Origin: a phage
Direction: 5' to 3' (one strand)
Assembly (NCBI GenBank): GCA_012490745.1
Contig: GCA_012490745.1_3925.1
DNA: 64,000 bases
Part shown: in pieces, positions 17,663 through 42,336 of the stretch
How positions within the stretch are numbered: the stretch's first letter is position 1
Layout of the letters: each line of letters begins with the position of its first letter
The notes under the pieces: generated by a model
The model's input: the letters and a program-made list of their open reading frames with translations, nothing else
What the model was told of the DNA's origin: nothing
Database searches by the model: none
Translations under genes and position numbers: made by a program

Positions 17663-17739
17663 CTCTGTTTAGCTCAGCTTGGTAGAGCGTTCCGTTTGGG
17701 GCGGTAAGGCCGGAGGTTCAAGTCCTCCAACAGAGACCA
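17663..17739 (+). tRNA. tRNA-Pro (anticodon TGG)
   Basis: Acceptor ctctgtt/aacagag, T-arm ggagg-ttcaagt-cctcc, anticodon loop tttgggg, CCA encoded. Confidence 0.6.
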
Positions 17740-17746
17740 AATTAAT

Positions 17747-17824
17747 GTTCCAGTAGACAAAATGGTAAAGTCACCACTCTTTCAAAGTGGATATCTGAGG
17801 GTTCAAATCCCTTCTGGAACGCCA
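17747..17824 (+). tRNA. tRNA-Glu (TTC)
   Basis: Acceptor gttccag/ctggaac, anticodon arm ccact-ctttcaa-agtgg, T-loop ttcaaat, discriminator G. Confidence 0.7.
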
Positions 17825-17915
17825 GTTTTGACAGAAGACCAATTACAGCAAACTTAATCTTATTCATCTGAAGGTAAATCGGACAAAGAAGAGATTTGGT
17901 CTGGTCATTAAGAAT

Positions 17916-17992
17916 TGCGGGTATAGAGAAAGGGCGTCTCACATGTCTCATTAGCATGGTATCGGCAGGTTCGACTCCTGCACCCGCCTCCA
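17916..17992 (+). tRNA. tRNA-Met (CAT); possibly initiator
   Basis: Anticodon arm catgt-ctcatta-gcatg, T-arm gcagg-ttcgact-cctgc, 1:72 mismatch. Confidence 0.55.
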
Positions 17993-18069
17993 ATTTTGCA
18001 GAAGACCGTATTCAGCAACAAAATACTTTTTGCGGATAAAAGAAAAAACACGGTCTGGCAATGTATTAA

Positions 18070-18146
18070 GGTTAGGAAGCACATAAGGTATGTGCGGTCG
18101 CCTGTTAAGCGAATGGCACAGGGTTCGAATCCCTGACTAACCGCCA
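18070..18146 (+). tRNA. tRNA-Asn (GTT)
   Basis: Anticodon loop ctgttaa, T-arm caggg-ttcgaat-ccctg, CCA encoded. Confidence 0.65.
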
Positions 18147-18155
18147 AATTTAAAT

Positions 18156-18243
18156 GTGTCGTTATCCCGTAGATGGTAGCGGTGGGGACTGTAAATCCCT
18201 TGTCATTGAGACTCGGTAGGTTCGACTCCTACACGGCACACCA
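18156..18243 (+). tRNA. tRNA-Tyr (GTA), class II
   Basis: Anticodon arm gggga-ctgtaaa-tccct, long variable arm ttgtcattgagactcg, T-arm gtagg-ttcgact-cctac. Confidence 0.7.
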
Positions 18244-18249
18244 AATAAA

Positions 18250-18327
18250 GGTTATGTAGTTTAATCTGGTTAAAATACTCCCCTGTCACGGGAGATGATG
18301 AGGGTTCAAATCCCTTCGTAACCGCCA
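18250..18327 (+). tRNA. tRNA-Asp (GTC)
   Basis: Anticodon arm ctccc-ctgtcac-gggag, T-loop ttcaaat, discriminator G. Confidence 0.7.
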
Positions 18328-18643
18328 AATTATAATAAGTATTTCAAAATGATGTTTGAGAGGGCTATTTTAGCCCCTCCCTTAAAGAGTTCTTACGAGT
18401 ATTCTTTAAAGGAGCAGAAGACCAAATTCAGCAAGTACGTATGATATTTTCAAGCCAATTTAATTTTGAAAAAATTTATAAAACTTGGTCTGGCTCAACA
18501 ATTTTACAGAAGACCGTTTACAGCAAAACTTAAACAATCTATTTCTCCGGTAAAGAAAAGGCGAAGGTTCGATTCCTTCACTCGGCAGATGTCGAGTTGG
18601 TGTAATGGTAGCACTTAAGATGATAAACAACGGTCTGGTAATT

Positions 18644-18779
18644 ATCTTTGTAGATAAGTTATTAAGCTTACCTGTGAGTATGCGACCACAAAGGGTGAAA
18701 GGGTAAATTCTAGATTTAAACCCAAAAAGGCACATCGCTACAGACCTTAAGCAAGTCTGGGTAGCTTATCTACAAAGAT
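18644..18779 (+). ncRNA. Candidate structured small RNA: 15-bp perfect inverted repeat (atctttgtagataag / cttatctacaaagat) enclosing 106 nt with internal hairpins
   Basis: Perfect long-range stem plus internal hairpins cagac-cttaagcaa-gtctg and gggt...accc; lies between tRNA genes. Confidence 0.4.
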
Positions 18780-18787
18780 AATTTAAT

Positions 18788-18863
18788 GGAAGTGTAGCAG
18801 AATGGTGATGCGGCAGACTTTTAATCTGACAGGCGATGGGTTCGAATCCCTCCACTTCTACCA
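18788..18863 (+). tRNA. tRNA-Lys (TTT)
   Basis: Acceptor ggaagtg/cacttct, anticodon loop cttttaa, T-loop ttcgaat; paralog of 20023-20098. Confidence 0.6.
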
Positions 18864-18867
18864 AAAT

Positions 18868-18944
18868 GGTTCAGTCGCAGATAAGGTAATGCAAGGGTCT
18901 CATAAGCCCTATGAATGTGGGTTCGATTCCCATCTGAACCTCCA
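18868..18944 (+). tRNA. tRNA with CAT anticodon (elongator Met, or Ile2 if lysidine-modified)
   Basis: Acceptor ggttcag/ctgaacc, anticodon arm agggt-ctcataa-gccct, T-loop ttcgatt. Confidence 0.6.
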
Positions 18945-18945
18945 A

Positions 18946-19021
18946 GCTGGTATAGTTAAGAAGGTTATAACACTCCCCTGATAAGGGAACATCGGTGGTT
19001 CGATTCCACCTACCAGTACCA
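18946..19021 (+). tRNA. tRNA-Ile (GAT)
   Basis: D-arm gtta...taac, anticodon loop ctgataa, T-arm ggtgg-ttcgatt-ccacc. Confidence 0.65.
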
Positions 19022-19029
19022 ATTTCAAT

Positions 19030-19075
19030 AAAGTTGTTGACACTGAGATGTGACTACTTTATAGTAACCTTAGTT
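19030..19075 (+). promoter_or_regulatory. Internal promoter TTGACA-17nt-TATAGT within the tRNA array
   Basis: aaagttgTTGACActgagatgtgactacttTATAGTaacc. Confidence 0.55.
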
Positions 19076-19269
19076 TTCGTTGCGTAGCGTCTATTTTGCA
19101 AATTTAAAATAAATGCAAACGACAATGTTTTTCTGGCAGTAGCTTGATAGGCTAAACACCAGTGAGGTCTTCCAATCCCTCATCAAAGAATTTGGCGTAC
19201 TAGCCCACGGTATGATTAATAAGGTGGGCATCTTTAAGGGCTTTCTAAGAGAGTCTTTAAAGATAATTA

Positions 19270-19351
19270 CGGGGCGTATCTCAGCGGTCTTCTAAACCGC
19301 CGTTAACCGAGTAAGTGGAGTATGCGGGTTCGAGTCCTGCCGCCTCGACCA
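19270..19351 (+). tRNA. atypical tRNA-like gene (candidate Arg-TCT); cloverleaf not resolved
   Basis: Good acceptor cggggcg/cgcctcg and T-arm gcggg-ttcgagt-cctgc; perfect hairpin gcggt-cttctaa-accgc sits where the D-arm should be. Confidence 0.4.
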
Positions 19352-19494
19352 ATTTAGTTAGCAGATTACTTAGACGACCTAAGCGGGTCTTCCTGTAGGG
19401 AGGTGGTCTGTATCTCATGTTTTCCAGAACATGTAAATAATCTGAGAAGGGGCTTTACAGTGTTGAGATAATACGGTAAGCTTCGAATTATAGT

Positions 19495-19577
19495 ATGGGA
19501 CGATGTTAAGACTCTAAGGCATGAGCAACGGCCTCCAAAACCGTTTCAAAGGGGTTCAACTCCTCCGTCCCATGCCA
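19495..19577 (+). tRNA. tRNA-like gene, candidate Trp (CCA), with 7-8 extra nt in the 5' region
   Basis: Perfect acceptor atgggac/gtcccat, anticodon loop ctccaaa, T-loop ttcaact. Confidence 0.45.
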
Positions 19578-19590
19578 AAGTCTTATTAGG

Positions 19591-19680
19591 GGTAGGTAGC
19601 GGCTAATGGCAGCCAAACAGTCTTGAAAACTGTTGCCACTGTAGAGATACGGTGAGGGTTCGACTCCTTTACTTACCGCC
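19591..19680 (+). tRNA. tRNA-Ser (TGA), class II
   Basis: Anticodon arm acagt-cttgaaa-actgt, long variable arm, T-arm gaggg-ttcgact-ccttt, discriminator G. Confidence 0.65.
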
Positions 19681-19937
19681 TAATAAGATTTTTAAAGCCA
19701 AGCTTCATTCGGATGTTGCTTTGGTATACCGCGTGTATTGTCGTACACACAGATAAAGCACCTAGTAGGTGTCACGGAGAAGAGATAATATCAAGCTCTC
19801 CAAAGGTTCTAGTCACCGGATTAAACAAGACTATGCAAAGGCCTTTTTAGGTCTTTTTAGAGGGCTTCTAAGGTTATTACAGCTTGTTGTGGAACCTTGT
19901 TGCTTAGGTTCTTAGAAGTTCTCTAAAAAGATTTAAT

Positions 19938-20015
19938 GGGAGATTGACGGTAATTGGTAAACCTACCATCCTTAGAAGTTGGTGTTTGAGGGTTCGAATC
20001 CCTTGTCTCCTACCA
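19938..20015 (+). tRNA. tRNA with TAG anticodon (Leu) but class I length
   Basis: Anticodon arm ccatc-cttagaa-gttgg, Leu-like D-loop aattggtaaac, discriminator A, T-arm gaggg-ttcgaat-ccctt. Confidence 0.5.
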
Positions 20016-20022
20016 AATTAAT

Positions 20023-20098
20023 GCAGGTGTAGCAAAATGGTTATGCGGCTGACTCTTAATCAGTAAGACGATGGGTTCAATTCCCTCCACCTGTACCA
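20023..20098 (+). tRNA. tRNA-Lys (CTT)
   Basis: Anticodon arm gctga-ctcttaa-tcagt, T-loop ttcaatt, acceptor gcaggtg/cacctgt. Confidence 0.6.
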
Positions 20099-20104
20099 AA
20101 CAAT

Positions 20105-20180
20105 GGGGATGTAGTTTACATGGTTAAAACATAAGTTTTGCAAACTTAAGTACAGGGTTCAATTCCCTGCTTCTCCACCA
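20105..20180 (+). tRNA. tRNA-Ala (TGC)
   Basis: D-arm gttt...aaac, anticodon arm taagt-tttgcaa-actta, T-arm caggg-ttcaatt-ccctg. Confidence 0.65.
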
Positions 20181-20186
20181 ATTAGT

Positions 20187-20261
20187 GCATCCATAGTTTA
20201 AACGGGAAAATTACAGTCTTCCAAACTGAGGTTGAGGGTTCGATTCCCTCTGGATGCTCCA
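20187..20261 (+). tRNA. tRNA-Gly (TCC)
   Basis: Perfect acceptor gcatcca/tggatgc, anticodon loop cttccaa, T-arm gaggg-ttcgatt-ccctc. Confidence 0.65.
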
Positions 20262-20266
20262 AACAA

Positions 20267-20344
20267 TGCTGCTTTCGTATAATTGGCTATTACACATCCC
20301 TTGTAAGGATGGAAATGCAGGTTCGAGTCCTGTGAGCAGCACCA
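20267..20344 (+). tRNA. tRNA-Thr (TGT)
   Basis: Anticodon arm catcc-cttgtaa-ggatg, T-loop ttcgagt. Confidence 0.65.
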
Positions 20345-20440
20345 ATTCAGAGGTCAAGTGAAAGACCGCTTTGAGTCAACTGAAGACCGTAACAAATTCC
20401 ACGGAGTTGAGTTAGCGGCACAACTCCAGACCTCTTTCAT

Positions 20441-20515
20441 ACTCGCTTAGTTTATATGGTAAAACATCACCCTTACAAGATGAAGAAAAAGGTTCAAGTC
20501 CTTTAGTGAGTACCA
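20441..20515 (+). tRNA. tRNA-Val (TAC)
   Basis: D-arm gttt-atatggta-aaac, anticodon loop cttacaa, T-arm aaagg-ttcaagt-ccttt. Confidence 0.6.
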
Positions 20516-20516
20516 T

Positions 20517-20594
20517 GTTCCAGTATCCCAATTGGCAGAGGATGCAAGCTCAAACCTTGTACTAGTGACGGTTCGAATCCGTCTTGGAACACCA
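20517..20594 (+). tRNA. tRNA with CAA anticodon (Leu) but short variable arm
   Basis: Anticodon arm (t)gcaag-ctcaaac-cttgt(a), Leu-like D-loop aattggcagag, discriminator A, T-arm gacgg-ttcgaat-ccgtc. Confidence 0.5.
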
Positions 20595-20599
20595 ATTTT

Positions 20600-20675
20600 G
20601 CAGGATTAGTTCAAATGGATAGAGCAACAGTCTACGAAGCTGTTAATAGGGGTTCGAATCCCTTATCCTGCGCCA
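20600..20675 (+). tRNA. tRNA-Arg (ACG)
   Basis: Perfect acceptor gcaggat/atcctgc, anticodon arm acagt-ctacgaa-gctgt, T-loop ttcgaat. Confidence 0.65.
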
Positions 20676-20694
20676 ATTTAAAGAGGCTATTTAG

Positions 20695-21252
20695 ATGAGA
20701 TATTTGAAGTATGCTTCATGGATTTTCTTAGCTTTGTTAGAGCCATTTGCAGCAATCTTAGCAGTTATCTTAGCACCTTTTGTAGTTCCATTCTACAGTG
20801 AGAAGAAAGGACACTTACCTTTCGGGTTCAGATGGATGGAGACATATGACAACCCAATTGATGGTGATGAAGGTCACGTTAAAAGATGGGCTAATATTAG
20901 ATGGATTGGTAAACTAGGTGTCTACATGCAAAGAGTCGGATGGCTCTGGAGAAACAAAGCTTATAACTTCTCTTACCATGTATTAGGAAGAGATGTAAGA
21001 GATGTTACTAAGTGGAAAGGTAATATCAACGTAAGTTCTGACCCCGAAGATAATCAGACAGGTTATCTCCTAATGTGGAACAGTAATGCTTGGGGATTAT
21101 TCGCTTTTATCCCATCAATTAAAATCTTTGGTAAACAGTTTTACTGGAGAATTTATATTGGATGGAAACTTAAAAGTGTTGTCCCAGAAGAAAGAGCATT
21201 CTCAAGGGAAAGAGTTATGTTGGCATTCTTTATTCATCCACTGAGAAAGTAA
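20695..21252 (+). CDS. hypothetical Trp-rich membrane protein (185 aa) embedded in the tRNA array
   Basis: ORF with SD aaGAGG; N-terminal TM helix (WIFLALLEPFAAILAVILAPFVVPF). Confidence 0.55.
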   Translation: MRYLKYASWIFLALLEPFAAILAVILAPFVVPFYSEKKGHLPFGFRWMETYDNPIDGDEGHVKRWANIRWIGKLGVYMQRVGWLWRNKAYNFSYHVLGRDVRDVTKWKGNINVSSDPEDNQTGYLLMWNSNAWGLFAFIPSIKIFGKQFYWRIYIGWKLKSVVPEERAFSRERVMLAFFIHPLRK

Positions 21253-21260
21253 AGATTTAA

Positions 21261-21336
21261 AGGGGATTAGTTTACAAGGTTAAAACCTCGGTCTTTGAAA
21301 TCGAAGAAGTTGGTTCAATTCCAACATCCCCCGCCA
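21261..21336 (+). tRNA. tRNA-Gln (TTG)
   Basis: Anticodon arm tcggt-ctttgaa-atcga, T-arm gttgg-ttcaatt-ccaac, A1:C72 mismatch. Confidence 0.55.
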
Positions 21337-21338
21337 AT

Positions 21339-21416
21339 GCTCCATTACTCCAATTGGCAGAGAGGCCAGACTTAAAATCTGTGTTATGTATCGGTTCGAA
21401 TCCGATATGGAGTACC
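21339..21416 (+). tRNA. tRNA with TAA anticodon (Leu) but short variable arm
   Basis: Paralog of 20517-20594 (D-loop aattggcagag), anticodon loop cttaaaa, discriminator A. Confidence 0.5.
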
Positions 21417-21422
21417 AAATTT

Positions 21423-21497
21423 AGCGGTATAGCATAACTGGCAATGCAACAGTCTCTGAAGCTGTCCTATTAAGGTTCAAATCCTTATGCCGCTGCC
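21423..21497 (+). tRNA. tRNA-Gln (CTG)
   Basis: D-arm gcat...atgc, anticodon arm acagt-ctctgaa-gctgt, T-arm taagg-ttcaaat-cctta. Confidence 0.55.
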
Positions 21498-21529
21498 ACT
21501 TCTAAGGATTCTTACGAGAGTCCTTAAAT

Positions 21530-21605
21530 GTGGCCTTATCATAAAAGGTAATGACCCATGCTGTGAACATGGTCTATACGGGTTCAAATCCCGTAGGTCA
21601 CCCCA
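21530..21605 (+). tRNA. tRNA-His (GTG)
   Basis: Anticodon arm ccatg-ctgtgaa-catgg, discriminator C73, T-arm acggg-ttcaaat-cccgt. Confidence 0.65.
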
Positions 21606-21610
21606 ATTTA

Positions 21611-21688
21611 TAGTCCAAGTAGCTTATATGGTTAAAGCGCGTGTCTGAAAAACATGAGAAGAGGGTTCAAATCCCACTGGACTACCAA
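21611..21688 (+). tRNA. tRNA-Phe (GAA)
   Basis: Perfect acceptor tagtcca/tggacta, anticodon loop ctgaaaa, T-loop ttcaaat. Confidence 0.65.
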
Positions 21689-21703
21689 TTTCAAAGGTGC
21701 TTA

Positions 21704-22438
21704 ATGAAAGAGATGACAGAACAAGGTAAGGAGATTTTTAATCTCTTAAAAACTGGTAAAGGGTTTTCTAACCCCCTTATTACTGGTGCAGCAGTTCTCG
21801 GTGGAACCGTAGCTGCCTCTACATCACTTGTAAGCTCTATTAGCTCTGTATCAGACCCTACAGTAAAGGATAAGCTTGTTGCTGCTGGACTTACAACAGT
21901 TCTGCTTAACAGCTTTACCACGAGTCTGACAAGCACTACATCAACTACCAAAACACTAACAGATTACGGTCAAAAGTCCATTGATGAGTTTTCATCACGT
22001 ATGCAGGTAGCAAAAGGTTATTCTAATGTTATGGGTGCAGCAGGTGAACAAGTTGGCTGTACACCATTTAGTGGTATTATGGGTGTTGCTACAGAGTATG
22101 GTCAAAAAGCTATTGATACGATTAACAGTACACTAGATAGTGTTAATGGTGTGTTAAGTGACTTACAAGATGCTATTGATAAGGGTCTTGATACTGTTTC
22201 TGATTTAGCTAATCAGGCTGTTAGCAAGATTAATGAAGGTATCTCAAAGATTACAGCTTATGCAGATGAAGTTGTGCAGATGATTGAAGAAGAAGCTGCC
22301 CTTATTGCAGAGTACCTTAAAACGAATATCAATGGGTTCTTAGCAGGTATCTTACCAGACTGGTTTGATGATGCTTGTAAAACTGGTGTGATTGACACTA
22401 TTGCAACACCAGAAATGAAGAACGCATTACAGAAATAA
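21704..22438 (+). CDS. hypothetical Ser/Thr-rich protein (244 aa)
   Basis: The ORF-track start 21641 lies inside tRNA-Phe; ATG 21704 has SD aaaGGtg 5 nt upstream. Confidence 0.5.
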   Translation: MKEMTEQGKEIFNLLKTGKGFSNPLITGAAVLGGTVAASTSLVSSISSVSDPTVKDKLVAAGLTTVLLNSFTTSLTSTTSTTKTLTDYGQKSIDEFSSRMQVAKGYSNVMGAAGEQVGCTPFSGIMGVATEYGQKAIDTINSTLDSVNGVLSDLQDAIDKGLDTVSDLANQAVSKINEGISKITAYADEVVQMIEEEAALIAEYLKTNINGFLAGILPDWFDDACKTGVIDTIATPEMKNALQK

Positions 22439-22439
22439 T

Positions 22440-22532
22440 GGAAGATTAACCCTAAAAGGTAAGGGAGCAGTTTGCTAAACTGCCAGTAGCTGAGAAATCG
22501 GTGTACCAGTTCAAGTCTGGTATCTTCCTCCA
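22440..22532 (+). tRNA. tRNA-Ser (GCT), class II
   Basis: Perfect acceptor ggaagat/atcttcc, anticodon arm gcagt-ttgctaa-actgc, long variable arm, T-arm accag-ttcaagt-ctggt. Confidence 0.7.
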
Positions 22533-22536
22533 ATTT

Positions 22537-22612
22537 GAATCCGTGACAGAAATGGCTATGTGCCTGTCTGCAAAACAGGTTTATAAGGGTTCGAGTCCCT
22601 TCGGATTCTCCA
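22537..22612 (+). tRNA. tRNA-Cys (GCA)
   Basis: Perfect acceptor gaatccg/cggattc, anticodon arm cctgt-ctgcaaa-acagg, discriminator U73. Confidence 0.7.
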
Positions 22613-31785: not shown

Positions 31786-33138
31786 ATGTGGAATCCAATT
31801 GTTAATGTAGATATTACATTGAACACCGCAGGAACTACAAGAGAAGGTTTTGGTTTGCCACTATTCTTAGCTTCAACAGATAACTTTGAAGAAAGAGTCC
31901 GTGGTTACACTTCCTTAACTGAAGTTGCTGAAGATTTCGATGAAAACTCTGCTGCATATAAGGCTGCTAAACAACTTTGGAGTCAGACTCCTAAAGTAAC
32001 TCAGCTTTATATTGGTAGACGTGCTATGCAGTACACTGTATCAATTCCTGATGCCGTTACCAAAAGTACAGACTACTCAATTACTGTAGCTGCTGGCGGT
32101 GGAATTTCTCAACCATACCAGTACACAGCACAAGACTCAGACACTGCTGAGGTAGTGTTGCAACAGTTTAAAACACAGATTGAAGCTGACCCAACAATCA
32201 AAGATAAGGTTTCTGTGAATGTAACTGGTAGCAATGGCTCTGCCACAATGATTATTACCAAAGCTGGTGATAATGACTTTGTGAAAGTAACAACCACAGC
32301 ACAGACTGTATACATTGCAAGTACAACTGCCGATACAGCATCAACTGCTCTGGCAGCTATCGAAGCTTATTCTACTGACTGGTATTTCATTGCAGCAGAA
32401 GACAGAACTCAACAGTTTGTCTTAGCAATGGCTTCTGAGATTCAGGCTCGCAAGAAAATCTTCTTTACGGCTAACTCAGATGTAGCAGCACTGCAAGGCA
32501 CAGAATTAGCCAGTGCAAATGATGTTCCAGCACAGCTTGCTAAGAATATGTACACTCGTACAGTTTGCTTGTGGCATCACACAGCAGCAGAAGATTATCC
32601 AGAGATGGCATACATTGCTTATGGTGCTCCATATGACGCAGGTTCGATTGCTTGGGGTAATGCTCAGCTAACTGGTGTAGCAGCTTCTCTACAACCATCT
32701 AATCAGAGGCCTCTGACAAGTATTCAGAAGTCTGCTTTAGATGCACGTCACTGTAACTTTATTGACCTTGATGGTGGTGTTCCAGTGGTTCGTAGAGGGA
32801 TTACTTCTGGTGGGGAATGGATTGATATCATCCGTGGTGTTGACTGGTTAGAATCAGACCTGAAAACTTCTCTGAGAGACTTGCTAATTAACCAGAAGGG
32901 TGGTAAGATTACTTATGATGATACTGGTATTACTCGTATTCGTCAAGTCATTGAAACCTCTCTGCAAAGAGCAGTCAACAGAAACTTCCTGTCATCTTAC
33001 ACAGTTAATGTTCCTAAAGCCTCTCAAGTTGCTTTAGCAGACAAGAAAGCACGTATCCTGAAAGACGTTACCTTCGCAGGTATCTTAGCAGGGGCTATCT
33101 TGGATGTTGACTTGAAAGGTACAGTGGCTTACGAATAA
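31786..33138 (+). CDS. putative tail sheath protein (450 aa)
   Basis: Synteny: ~450-aa gene followed by ~150-aa gene, chaperones and tape measure; contractile-tail inference. Confidence 0.45.
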   Translation: MWNPIVNVDITLNTAGTTREGFGLPLFLASTDNFEERVRGYTSLTEVAEDFDENSAAYKAAKQLWSQTPKVTQLYIGRRAMQYTVSIPDAVTKSTDYSITVAAGGGISQPYQYTAQDSDTAEVVLQQFKTQIEADPTIKDKVSVNVTGSNGSATMIITKAGDNDFVKVTTTAQTVYIASTTADTASTALAAIEAYSTDWYFIAAEDRTQQFVLAMASEIQARKKIFFTANSDVAALQGTELASANDVPAQLAKNMYTRTVCLWHHTAAEDYPEMAYIAYGAPYDAGSIAWGNAQLTGVAASLQPSNQRPLTSIQKSALDARHCNFIDLDGGVPVVRRGITSGGEWIDIIRGVDWLESDLKTSLRDLLINQKGGKITYDDTGITRIRQVIETSLQRAVNRNFLSSYTVNVPKASQVALADKKARILKDVTFAGILAGAILDVDLKGTVAYE

Positions 33139-33153
33139 TAGAGGTAAATTGGA

Positions 33154-33600
33154 ATGGCTATGTATCAGCAATATTCCCCTAAAGACGTTGTATGTAGCTG
33201 GAATGGTATTGCCATTGAAGGCTTTGCCCCAGATTCATTCTTGCGTCTACAGAGAACATCACCACTTGTGACACCAGTTGTTGGTGCAGGTGGTCAAGTT
33301 GCTCTGACAAGAAATGCAGACAAGACAGGTACTATTGAGATTGAGTTAATGCAGACTTCTCTCTCTAACCAGATGCTTTCTGCAATTCAAGCTAAACAAG
33401 ACAATATGGAACTTGAAGAAGATATCTCTTCTAACTTCGTAATCTACGACCCATCAGGCTCTGTTCTGGCAACTGGTATTAATGCTTGGTTGCAGGAATT
33501 ACCGCAGATTGAACTTGGTCGTGACCAGAACTCTAAAACTTGGATTTTTGGTTGTGAGAAGCTAGACTACACTTCTACAATTCCAGCGTCAAGTGTTTAA
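33154..33600 (+). CDS. putative tail tube protein (148 aa)
   Basis: Size and position; followed by a strong terminator. Confidence 0.45.
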   Translation: MAMYQQYSPKDVVCSWNGIAIEGFAPDSFLRLQRTSPLVTPVVGAGGQVALTRNADKTGTIEIELMQTSLSNQMLSAIQAKQDNMELEEDISSNFVIYDPSGSVLATGINAWLQELPQIELGRDQNSKTWIFGCEKLDYTSTIPASSV

Positions 33601-33612
33601 TAAATCCTATAA

Positions 33613-33645
33613 GGGGGAGACTTTAAAAGGTCTTCCCCTTTTTTG
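33613..33645 (+). terminator. Rho-independent terminator (gggggagac-tttaaaag-gtcttcccc + tttttt)
   Basis: 9-bp GC-rich stem plus T run after the tube gene. Confidence 0.65.
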
Positions 33646-33673
33646 TTTCTTTTAAAAGTATTAAGGAATCACA

Positions 33674-34072
33674 ATGAAAACAGAATCTAGAGTAATTAAT
33701 GGTAAGAAAGTAAATATCGTTCTGCTTGGGGCAAGAGATGGTATTAAGATGTCTATGAAGTTGGGTAAAATTGTTGTTCCAACCTTTGCACAGATGCTAT
33801 CAAGTCTGACTGACAAGGGTAAGAAGGAAGCTCCAATGGTTCCATTTAAAGAGCTTGTTGAAGCTTGTTTTGACAGAATTGAAGAAATTAACCTTGAAGA
33901 GATGGCTACCTTATTATTTCAAGGGGCAACTGTTGATGACTTCCCACTTAATATTGATACATACTTCCAAGCAAACTATGGTGAATTTATTGATTACTTA
34001 GCATTTGCGCTGGAGGCAAACTTCGGAAGTTTTTTCGAAGCAAGCATTTTCAAAAGCCTAACTTCTCAGTAA
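33674..34072 (+). CDS. tail assembly chaperone (132 aa), upstream frame of a putative -1 frameshift pair
   Basis: Immediately upstream of the tape measure gene; slippery heptamer T_TTT_TTC at 34030-34036. Confidence 0.6.
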   Translation: MKTESRVINGKKVNIVLLGARDGIKMSMKLGKIVVPTFAQMLSSLTDKGKKEAPMVPFKELVEACFDRIEEINLEEMATLLFQGATVDDFPLNIDTYFQANYGEFIDYLAFALEANFGSFFEASIFKSLTSQ

Positions 34073-34313
34073 ACATGGGTAACACTCTACAGACACCACT
34101 AACTGATGCTGCTGTAGAGGCAACCTATGAAGAAGCAGACGAGATGAAATTTGTGCTTGCTATTTATGGTATGGAAGGGTGTAAAGAAACACTTGACCAA
34201 CTCTTTGCTATGACATTCTCTGATTTATTATCATTGAGACAATTTCTTGAAATTCAGAGGTCGTATAAAGAGGAAATTGCTTACAACGAACTTAGAAGAG
34301 CAGGAAAAATGTA

Positions 34314-34314
<1 letters not shown>
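34030..34314 (+). CDS. frameshift extension of the tail assembly chaperone (-1 frame; the ORF track shows it as 34075-34314)
   Basis: The -1 frame is open from 34003 through 34314 and overlaps the 3' end of 33674-34072; stop overlaps the tape measure ATG. Confidence 0.5.

Positions 34315-42336
<8,022 letters not shown>

What the first reader, a model, noticed from the sequence alone, without database searches (positions are those of the whole stretch)
34003..34314. Putative -1 programmed ribosomal frameshift in the tail assembly chaperone pair
The heptamer T_TTT_TTC at 34030-34036 lies in frame 0 of gene 33674-34072 (codons TTT TTC). The -1 frame is open from 34003 through the downstream 79-codon ORF to 34314, where its stop overlaps the tape measure ATG. 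A -1 slip would give a fusion product in the conserved position of the G/GT-type chaperones found upstream of tape measure genes in many tailed phages.
Basis: partly seen in the sequence, partly recalled or inferred. Interest (0 to 1): 0.65.

Follow-up and report, generated by a model that had tools for sequence, protein, structure and literature searches.

The report
Tail chaperone frameshift, already annotated
This Felix O1-like phage almost certainly makes a long and a short tail-assembly chaperone from one gene region by a programmed backward ribosome slip on TTTTTTC, a textbook phage trick already annotated at this exact site in close relatives.

Summary
T_TTT_TTC lies at 34030-34036 in the zero-frame phase of gene 33674-34072. 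The -1 frame is open from 33994 (not 34003) to 34314, where its stop overlaps the tape measure ATG. One heptamer in a 26-codon overlap is not significant alone (about 10% by chance).

Comparison settles it. The window is a Felixounavirus. The heptamer is kept at synonymous sites in all 18 divergent lineages of the PF21822 chaperone family examined, including Vequintavirinae. The downstream "T" ORF has no start codon in most lineages, and one close relative has ATG changed to ATA. A Buttiauxella prophage encodes the fusion as one uninterrupted ORF and codes the same Ser-Phe-Phe with non-slippery TCA TTC TTC.

A -1 slip gives a 213-aa G-T fusion beside the 132-aa G. Reconstructed fusions with this junction match, residue for residue, the RefSeq/GenBank proteins of phages Mushroom, Michonne, Mordin and Maleficent. 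Genome papers for Moogle and Mijalis mention the frameshift. I found no experimental proof.

No 3' stimulatory structure is conserved. A GGAGG 13 nt upstream (34012-34016) is a possible dnaX-like stimulator; support is only suggestive.

Verdict: real, ordinary, already known; low interest.

The parts
31786..33138 (+). Tail sheath gene (context)
   Evidence: phrog_205 tail sheath, E 1.4e-123; PF11863
33154..33600 (+). Tail tube / virion structural protein gene (context)
   Evidence: PF11681 and phrog_280. It lies directly upstream of the chaperone pair, as in the relatives.
33611..33650 (+). Intrinsic-terminator-like hairpin plus T run between the tube gene and the chaperone gene
   Evidence: 13-bp stem with 6 G-C pairs followed by TTTTGTTTCT. 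Relatives XTG1 and KhF2 annotate a terminator in this stretch.
33674..34072 (+). G: zero-frame tail assembly chaperone, 132 aa
   Evidence: PF21822 Phage_TAC_15, E 1.7e-19; phrog_1613, E 2.9e-48
34012..34016 (+). GGAGG, a Shine-Dalgarno-like pentamer 13 nt upstream of the heptamer; candidate 5' frameshift stimulator (inferred)
   Evidence: GGAGG, AGGAG or GGGAG at an 11-13 nt spacing in 16 of 23 loci tabulated (several near-duplicates), despite different amino acids (LEA, LEV, LKE, LRE). Synonymous-recoding test: window p = 0.06, 18 lineages combined p = 0.004. GGAGG occurs only 5 times in 48 kb of genes. A 9-14 nt spacing is the range known to stimulate -1 frameshifting (PMC5009743).
34030..34036 (+). 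Slippery heptamer T_TTT_TTC (P-site UUU, A-site UUC, both read by tRNA-Phe)
   Evidence: Correct phase. Conserved in all 34 close loci, in 14 of 15 distant viral contigs, in rV5-like phages and Pectobacterium Wc4-1 and in L056 and L058. Product of codon-usage probabilities over 18 lineages: 6e-12.
34036..34314 (+). -1 frame segment read after the slip (92 codons plus stop). C34036 is read twice, giving the fusion G(1-121)+RSKHFQKPNFSVN+T, 213 aa
   Evidence: Translation. The same junction in Mushroom and Mooglevirus equals deposited proteins. The fusion aligns across the junction with a single-ORF homologue.
34075..34314 (+). T ORF as usually annotated on its own (79 aa)
   Evidence: phrog_4963, E 2.8e-55. 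No Shine-Dalgarno motif in the 16 nt before its ATG. The ATG is absent or mutated in relatives.
34028..34068 (+). Nucleotide-invariant island around and 3' of the heptamer, where the zero frame (SFFEASIFK) and the -1 frame (FFRSKHFQKP.F) are both conserved
   Evidence: 10 of 11 aa-invariant degenerate codons are nucleotide-invariant here against 7 of 48 elsewhere, Fisher p = 3e-6. The span corresponds to fusion residues 119-131 tested.
34314..36542 (+). Tape measure protein gene (context; the client of the chaperones)
   Evidence: PF20155 TMP_3; phrog_4036, 1530 bits

Best explanation

Most ribosomes read 33674-34072 and release the 132-aa chaperone G. A minority pause with tRNA-Phe on UUU (P site) and UUC (A site) of U_UUU_UUC (34030-34036). 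They slip one base back, re-pair with UUU UUU, and continue in the -1 frame from CGA (34036) to TAA (34312-34314). The result is a 213-aa G-T fusion.

By analogy with lambda gpG/gpGT, the G part coats the tape measure protein encoded immediately downstream, and the T part recruits the tube protein. Neither ends up in the virion.

Shown here:
- the anatomy of the site;
- deep synonymous-site conservation of the heptamer;
- protein-level conservation of the -1 frame before any start codon;
- the existence of an unfused-gene equivalent of the fusion.

Inferred:
- that slippage is ribosomal;
- its efficiency;
- the division of labour between G and T.
For: - **Synteny and family.** The order is sheath, tube, G, T, tape measure, and G matches PF21822 and TAC PHROGs.
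- **Heptamer phase and frames.** The heptamer is in the canonical phase, the -1 frame is open 33994-34314, and the +1 frame is closed.
- **Heptamer conservation.** It is conserved in all 34 Felixounavirus, Suspvirus, Mooglevirus and Kolesnikvirus loci, down to 39% G identity. It is also kept in 14 of 15 distant viral contigs at 29-50% identity, in Vequintavirinae and Pectobacterium phage Wc4-1, and in two further lineages. Given the amino acids, the codon-usage expectation is 0.13-0.43 per lineage, with a product of 6e-12 over 18 lineages.
- **No independent start for T.** T has no in-frame start near the G stop in L032-L034 and most distant loci. L007 has ATG changed to ATA. The records for Erwinia M7 and Pectobacterium Wc4-1 leave the T stretch unannotated. 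The window's ATG has no SD.
- **The -1 frame codes before the ATG.** The -1 peptide upstream of that ATG (RSKHFQKP.F) is conserved as protein.
- **Natural control.** In Buttiauxella prophage L055, G and a 201-aa G-like+T protein are separate genes, and Ser-Phe-Phe is coded TCA TTC TTC, which is not slippery. The window's fusion aligns with that single ORF across the junction (E 5e-13).
- **Match to deposited proteins.** Fusions reconstructed with this junction are identical to AJF40599.1/YP_009600435.1 (Mushroom) and to AKU44019.1/YP_009177317.1 (Michonne, Mordin, Maleficent). The 212-aa Moogle fusion YP_009145710.1 lies in the same 90% cluster.
- **Motif plausibility.** In E. coli, U_UU.C is the second most shift-prone tetramer, and UUN and all-pyrimidine heptamers are shift-prone (PMC4066793).
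Against: - I found no experimental demonstration (protein, mass spectrometry or reporter) for any Felix O1-like phage.
- No stimulatory hairpin or pseudoknot lies 5-9 nt downstream. The 70 nt after the heptamer fold at only -3.6 kcal/mol, RNAalifold finds no conserved pair, and Rfam has no hit. Efficiency may therefore be low.
- In this window T has an ATG 2 nt after the G stop, so some free T could also be made by termination-reinitiation.
- The lineages in the conservation statistics are related to one another, so the stated probabilities are overstated.
- The distant loci were found with the peptide pattern NF[GS]SFFE. That fixes the amino acids but not the codons.
Confidence: 0.88

Rival explanations
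1. There is no frameshift. T (34075-34314) is an independent 79-aa protein translated from its own ATG by coupling to termination of G (TAA-AC-ATG), and the heptamer is a by-product of a conserved Ser-Phe-Phe motif.
For: The ATG lies 2 nt after the G stop in 23 of 24 close relatives. Most GenBank records, including Felix O1 itself, annotate a separate 79-aa protein.
Against: There is no SD before the ATG. The ATG is ATA in L007 and absent in Kolesnikvirus, L032, Wc4-1 and most distant relatives, while the T sequence stays conserved. The -1 frame is conserved as protein upstream of the ATG. Synonymous sites of the heptamer are fixed in 18 of 18 lineages and released only where the fusion is a separate gene.
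Confidence: 0.05
2. The same G-T fusion is made by transcriptional slippage. RNA polymerase adds one extra U on the T6 run, perhaps helped by the small hairpin just upstream (34010-34026), and ribosomes then read the edited mRNA normally.
For: It is a homopolymeric T run. The terminator scan flags a 6-bp hairpin followed by AAGTTTTTTC. The protein product would be identical, so the comparative protein evidence cannot tell the two mechanisms apart.
Against: The run is only 6 T. Productive bacterial slippage is described for runs of about 9 A or T (PMC5009743). Position 7 is C in 16 of 18 lineages although TTT is a common Phe codon, so selection does not lengthen the run. The hairpin is weak (-7.2 kcal/mol), is not conserved in shape, and such terminator-like hits are expected by chance (0.9 per shuffle).
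Confidence: 0.05
3. It is coincidence: a chance heptamer in a chance overlap of two independent genes.
For: An in-phase X_XXY_YYZ heptamer in a 26-codon overlap is expected about 10% of the time in this AT-rich genome.
Against: The conservation across subfamilies at synonymous sites, the missing start codons and the fused homologue all argue against chance.
Confidence: 0.02

Closest known systems
Tape measure chaperone frameshift annotated in Salmonella phage Mushroom (AJF40599.1 / YP_009600435.1) and in Citrobacter phages Moogle, Michonne, Mordin, Maleficent and Mijalis (Ounavirinae)
   Same: Same genes, same heptamer and same junction (...NFGSFF|R[SG]KHFQKPNF...). The Mushroom locus covers the same span at 97.3% nucleotide identity. 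The reconstructed Mushroom and Mooglevirus fusions equal the deposited proteins. The frameshift is mentioned in PMC4319497 and PMC5543628.
   Different: The window's own 213-aa fusion differs from Mushroom's at two residues and is not itself in the protein collection. Most sister genomes annotate two separate ORFs.
Phage lambda gpG/gpGT and the conserved tail-assembly frameshift of dsDNA phages (Xu, Hendrix & Duda 2004, cited in PMC5543628; summary in PMC5009743)
   Same: Two overlapping ORFs between the tube or major tail gene and the tape measure gene. A -1 slip on an X_XXY_YYZ heptamer near the end of G gives a minor G-T fusion. Per PMC5009743, G binds the tape measure and T binds the tail tube protein.
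   Different: The heptamer differs (lambda uses G_GGA_AAG, from my own knowledge). There is no detectable sequence similarity to lambda G (the family here is PF21822). The tail is contractile (myovirus) rather than a siphovirus tail. Nothing has been tested experimentally here.
E. coli dnaX -1 frameshift signal
   Same: A slippery heptamer preceded by a Shine-Dalgarno-like sequence within the 9-14 nt range that stimulates -1 shifts (PMC5009743). Here GGAGG lies 13 nt upstream.
   Different: dnaX also has a strong 3' stem-loop and uses A_AAA_AAG; no 3' structure is found here. The role of the SD-like motif here is an inference with modest statistical support.

Membership tests
G/GT-type tail assembly chaperone pair with programmed frameshift (Xu et al. 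2004 type) | Two consecutive ORFs lying between the tail tube / major tail gene and the tape measure gene | tested here: met
   Tube 33154-33600, G 33674-34072, T 34075-34314, tape measure 34314-36542. The order is the same in the relatives.
G/GT-type tail assembly chaperone pair with programmed frameshift (Xu et al. 2004 type) | The second ORF overlaps the end of the first in the -1 frame and does not depend on its own start codon | tested here: met
   The -1 frame is open from 33994, a 79-nt overlap. No SD precedes ATG 34075. A start codon is absent in L032-L034, L035-L048, M7 and Wc4-1, and is ATA in L007.
G/GT-type tail assembly chaperone pair with programmed frameshift (Xu et al. 2004 type) | An X_XXY_YYZ slippery heptamer in zero-frame phase inside the overlap, conserved among relatives | tested here: met
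   T_TTT_TTC at 34030-34036. It is kept in 18 of 18 divergent lineages, and lost only where G and GT are separate genes.
G/GT-type tail assembly chaperone pair with programmed frameshift (Xu et al. 2004 type) | Both G and the G-T fusion are produced, the fusion in the minority, and both are needed for tail assembly | not testable with these tools
   This needs protein detection and genetics. No such data were found in the literature searches.
Pfam PF21822 Phage_TAC_15 | Whole-protein score above the curated gathering threshold | tested here: met
   71 bits against a cutoff of 22, E 1.7e-19, covering profile positions 1-124 of 127.
PHROG 4963 (T part, tail assembly chaperone) | Full-length profile match | tested here: met
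   E 2.8e-55, positions 1-79 of 79.
dnaX-type -1 frameshift cassette | Shine-Dalgarno-like sequence 9-14 nt 5' of the heptamer | tested here: inconclusive
   GGAGG is present with a 13-nt spacer. Recoding test: window p = 0.06, combined p = 0.004 over 18 related lineages. The motif is absent in L032, L033, L056, L044, L045 and L048.
dnaX-type -1 frameshift cassette | Stable stem-loop or pseudoknot 5-9 nt 3' of the heptamer | tested here: not met
   The window folds at -3.6 kcal/mol over 70 nt. No consensus pairs are found in 9 Ounavirinae sequences. The only notable hairpin starts about 38 nt downstream. Rfam has no family match.
Transcriptional slippage site | Homopolymeric A or T run long enough for productive slippage (about 9) | tested here: not met
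   The run is 6 T, and position 7 is C in 16 of 18 lineages. The length criterion comes from PMC5009743.
Structurally characterised tail assembly chaperones in the PDB | Fold similarity of G to a solved chaperone | tested here: inconclusive
   [not shown]

The most novel reading that the evidence does not exclude
The frameshift signal of this chaperone family is a conserved 5' cassette rather than the usual heptamer plus 3' structure. In this reading, an anti-Shine-Dalgarno-pairing motif 11-13 nt upstream is maintained through different amino-acid contexts (LEA, LEV, LKE, LRE) across Ounavirinae, Vequintavirinae and uncultured phages. Lineages that lack it appear to carry 3' hairpins instead. 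This would be a documented case of interchangeable stimulators in a phage tail chaperone frameshift.
Probability: 0.3. Interest if true: 0.3.

Novelty: already known. Interest (0 to 1): 0.14.

Why it matters
The practical value is for annotation. Most Felix O1-like genomes, including Felix O1 itself, list two separate small proteins or leave a gap where a G-T fusion should be annotated. Felixounaviruses are widely used in Salmonella and E. coli typing and biocontrol. Anyone engineering their tail genes must keep the heptamer and both frames of the 34028-34068 stretch intact. Scientifically it adds another well-supported example to a long-established rule, not a new principle. The possible upstream Shine-Dalgarno stimulator and the prophage that replaced the frameshift by gene duplication are modest additions.

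Tried and rejected
- **Downstream stimulator.** I tried single-sequence folds of 34030-34130 and 33990-34090, ViennaRNA folds of 19 lineages, RNAalifold on 9 Ounavirinae sequences and Rfam at permissive E. Nothing lies at a functional distance in the window. The hairpin at about 34074-34129 (z -2.8) is too far away and is not conserved.\n- **Hairpin enclosing the heptamer.** The hairpin CUUCGGAA/UUUCGAAG would be melted by the ribosome and is not conserved in L032-L034, so I rejected it as a stimulator.\n- **The nucleotide-invariant island as an RNA element.** I considered this but do not favour it. In a -1 overlap, every third position of one frame is a first position of the other, so conservation of both peptides explains the island. 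The -1 linker motif KP.F persists in the non-frameshifted Buttiauxella fusion.\n- **+1 frameshift.** Rejected, because the +1 frame closes after 6-14 codons.\n- **Structural confirmation of the chaperone fold.** Inconclusive.\n- **Experimental proof in the literature.** I found only annotation-level statements. Xu et al. 2004 is not in the held library.\n- **Wasted calls.** Two paper-tool calls failed on syntax, and two term searches in PMC4066793 found nothing because of how the paper writes motifs. The start-codon census at the end had an indexing slip, so I used the printed sequences instead.

Full report
**What the window is.** The stretch 33100-36600 matches 297 phage records, the best at 99.1% identity (phages XTG1 and ECML-1). 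Most are Felixounavirus phages of Escherichia, Salmonella and Shigella. The local genes are:
- tail sheath, 31786-33138;
- tube or structural protein, 33154-33600;
- a 132-aa protein, 33674-34072, matching Pfam PF21822 "Phage tail assembly chaperone" (71 bits, cutoff 22) and PHROG 1613;
- a 79-aa ORF, 34075-34314, matching PHROG 4963 "tail assembly chaperone";
- the 742-aa tape measure protein, 34314-36542.

**Checking the observation.** TTTTTTC is at 34030-34036. Base 34030 is the third base of AGT, so the zero frame reads AG[T TTT TTC] = Ser-Phe-Phe, the canonical X_XXY_YYZ phase. The last base of that stop is the A of the tape measure ATG. A -1 slip reads C34036 twice and gives a 213-aa protein: G residues 1-121, then RSKHFQKPNFSVN, then the 79 residues of T. 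The +1 frame is closed within a few codons.

On sequence alone this is weak. In-phase slippery heptamers occur at 0.41% of codon positions in this AT-rich genome, so one in a 26-codon overlap has about a 10% chance.

**Comparative evidence.** I collected 59 related loci. They came from IMG/VR, from GenBank phage records and from assemblies.

- *Heptamer conservation.* All 34 loci of Felixounavirus, Suspvirus-like, Mooglevirus and Kolesnikvirus type carry TTTTTTC at the homologous Ser-Phe-Phe, followed by a -1 ORF of 94-110 codons. Wherever the locus extends far enough, that ORF ends at or just before the tape measure start. G identity in this set goes down to 39%.
- *More distant relatives.* The same holds for 14 of 15 distant viral contigs at 29-50% identity; two of them have TTTTTTT. 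It also holds for rV5-like Vequintavirinae, where the preceding codon is Cys TGT rather than Ser AGT but still ends in T, and for Pectobacterium phage Wc4-1. Two further lineages at 51-54% identity keep it as well.
- *Ascertainment.* The contigs were found with a peptide pattern. That fixes amino acids, not codons. The tblastn-derived loci have no such bias.
- *Probability.* Given the amino acids and each locus's codon usage, the chance of T_TTT_TTY is 0.13-0.43 per lineage. The product over 18 lineages is 6e-12. This is overstated because the lineages are related, but synonymous sites are otherwise saturated at these distances. Elsewhere in the gene only 7 of 48 amino-acid-invariant degenerate codons are nucleotide-invariant.

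**The downstream ORF does not stand alone.**
- In the window an ATG sits 2 nt after the G stop, but there is no Shine-Dalgarno motif in front of it.
- One close relative (L007) has ATA there.
- L032, the Erwinia Kolesnikvirus loci and most distant loci have no in-frame ATG, GTG or TTG until 68-122 nt past the G stop, which is well inside conserved T sequence.
- The RefSeq record of Erwinia phage M7 and the GenBank record of Wc4-1 simply leave about 235 nt unannotated there.
- The -1-frame peptide upstream of the window's ATG (RSKHFQKP.F) is conserved as protein.

**A natural control.** A prophage in Buttiauxella noackiae (L055) has a 126-aa G followed by a separate 201-aa gene with its own ATG. 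That gene encodes a second G-like domain fused in frame to a T-like domain. There the first G codes Ser-Phe-Phe as TCA TTC TTC, which is not slippery. The window's hypothetical fusion aligns colinearly with that single ORF across the junction (residues 81-208, E 5e-13), including the -1 linker: FRSKHFQKPNF against FVVKPFVKPDF. So the fusion is the selected product, and the slippery codons are kept only where a slip is needed to make it.

**Mechanism.** The simplest reading is tandem -1 slippage of two tRNA-Phe on U_UUU_UUC. In E. coli, U_UU.C is the second most shift-prone tetramer, and UUN and all-pyrimidine heptamers are shift-prone (PMC4066793).

I found no 3' stimulator:
- the 70 nt after the heptamer fold at -3.6 kcal/mol;
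- RNAalifold finds no conserved pair in nine Ounavirinae sequences;
- the only notable hairpin begins about 38 nt downstream;
- Rfam has no match.

There is a GGAGG at 34012-34016, 13 nt before the heptamer. This is within the 9-14 nt range at which internal Shine-Dalgarno sequences stimulate -1 shifts (PMC5009743). GGAGG, AGGAG or GGGAG at an 11-13 nt spacing is present in 16 of the 23 loci tabulated (several are near-duplicates), under different amino acids: cTG GAG Gca, AAG GAG, AGG GAG. GGAGG occurs only five times in 48 kb of this window's genes. A synonymous-recoding test gives p = 0.06 for the window and a combined p = 0.004. This is suggestive, not proven. Several lineages lack the motif, and some of those have stronger 3' hairpins.

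The nucleotide-invariant stretch around and after the heptamer (10 of 11 codons against 7 of 48 elsewhere, p = 3e-6) is most simply explained by double coding. In a -1 overlap, every silent position of one frame is a first codon position of the other.

**Rivals.**
- *Independent translation of T.* This may add some free T in this phage but cannot be the conserved mode, for the reasons given above.
- *Transcriptional slippage.* It would give the same protein and cannot be excluded by sequence. However, the run is only six T, productive slippage is described for runs of about nine (PMC5009743), and position 7 is C in 16 of 18 lineages instead of extending the run. The terminator-like hairpin flagged at 34010-34026 is weak and within chance expectation.

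**Comparison with what is known.** This is the G/GT arrangement of lambda and many other tailed phages (PMC5009743).

More to the point, it is already annotated at this very site. Salmonella phage Mushroom and Citrobacter phage Maleficent carry joined "tape measure chaperone" CDSs over the same span. The fusions I reconstructed from their DNA using the T_TTT_TTC junction are identical to AJF40599.1/YP_009600435.1 (Mushroom) and to AKU44019.1/YP_009177317.1 (Michonne, Mordin, Maleficent). The 212-aa Moogle fusion YP_009145710.1 lies in the same 90% cluster. The Moogle and Mijalis genome papers state the frameshift (PMC4319497, PMC5543628). Most other records, including Felix O1, list 132-aa and 79-aa proteins separately.

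I found no experimental verification. A structural check of G against solved chaperones was inconclusive.

**Verdict.** The novelty class is "already known". Interest is low. The only mildly new points are the family-wide reach of the U_UUU_UUC site (Ounavirinae to Vequintavirinae), the candidate upstream Shine-Dalgarno stimulator, and the prophage that replaced the frameshift with two genes.

Noticed in passing
window 34012-34016: GGAGG lies 13 nt upstream of the slippery heptamer. Equivalent SD-like motifs (GGAGG, AAGGAG, AGGGAG) recur at an 11-13 nt spacing in many relatives despite different amino acids, so this is a possible dnaX-like 5' stimulator.
   Followed up: partly
window 34028-34068: A block that is nucleotide-identical in phages whose G proteins are only about 40% identical (Felixounavirus against Erwinia Kolesnikvirus). 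It is probably due to double coding of two conserved peptides, but an RNA-level role is not excluded.
   Followed up: partly
L055:3001-3986 (Buttiauxella noackiae JPRU01000001.1): A prophage in which G (126 aa) and a G-like+T protein (201 aa, own ATG) are separate genes, and the Ser-Phe-Phe codons are non-slippery TCA TTC TTC. The frameshift has apparently been replaced by gene duplication.
   Followed up: partly
L007:2897-2910 (IMGVR_UViG_3300045988_004167): In a close relative the ATG of the T ORF is ATA, while the rest of T is unchanged.
   Followed up: yes
L051:1527-1892 and L052:1548-1910 (rV5-like Vequintavirinae): The same TTTTTTC (tgT TTT TTC) and a -1 ORF running to just before the tape measure gene. 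The records annotate T as a separate small protein, so the frameshift seems unannotated there.
   Followed up: partly
L054:1612-1847 (Erwinia phage M7, NC_041978) and L053:1624-1858 (Pectobacterium phage Wc4-1): About 235 nt between the chaperone and the tape measure gene are left unannotated, because T has no start codon. These are annotation gaps that the frameshift explains.
   Followed up: yes
window 33611-33650: A strong intrinsic-terminator-like hairpin (13 bp) plus a T run lies between the tube gene and the chaperone gene. It would lower expression of the chaperones and tape measure relative to sheath and tube.
   Followed up: no
window 17663-22612: A cluster of 25 tRNA genes, including tRNA-Phe(GAA) at 21612-21687, the tRNA species that would occupy both sites during the slip.
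   Followed up: no
L037, L039, L046, L047, L048 (distant relatives), 4-15 nt after the heptamer: Stable predicted hairpins (-14 to -22 kcal/mol) follow the heptamer, in contrast with the window (-3.6). L048 lacks the upstream SD-like motif, while L037, L039, L046 and L047 have one. Different lineages may therefore use different stimulators.
   Followed up: no
window 34074-34129: A local hairpin (CAUGGGU...ACCUAUG with CUCUACAG/CUGUAGAG; fold z-score -2.8) starts about 38 nt after the heptamer and covers the T ATG. It is not conserved in the more distant Ounavirinae.
   Followed up: partly
[not shown]
   Followed up: no
protein cluster (P0100): An identical-length Felix O1-type chaperone is deposited under Staphylococcus hyicus, and several under E. 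coli and Shigella assemblies. These are most likely phage DNA carried in bacterial assemblies rather than host genes.
   Followed up: no
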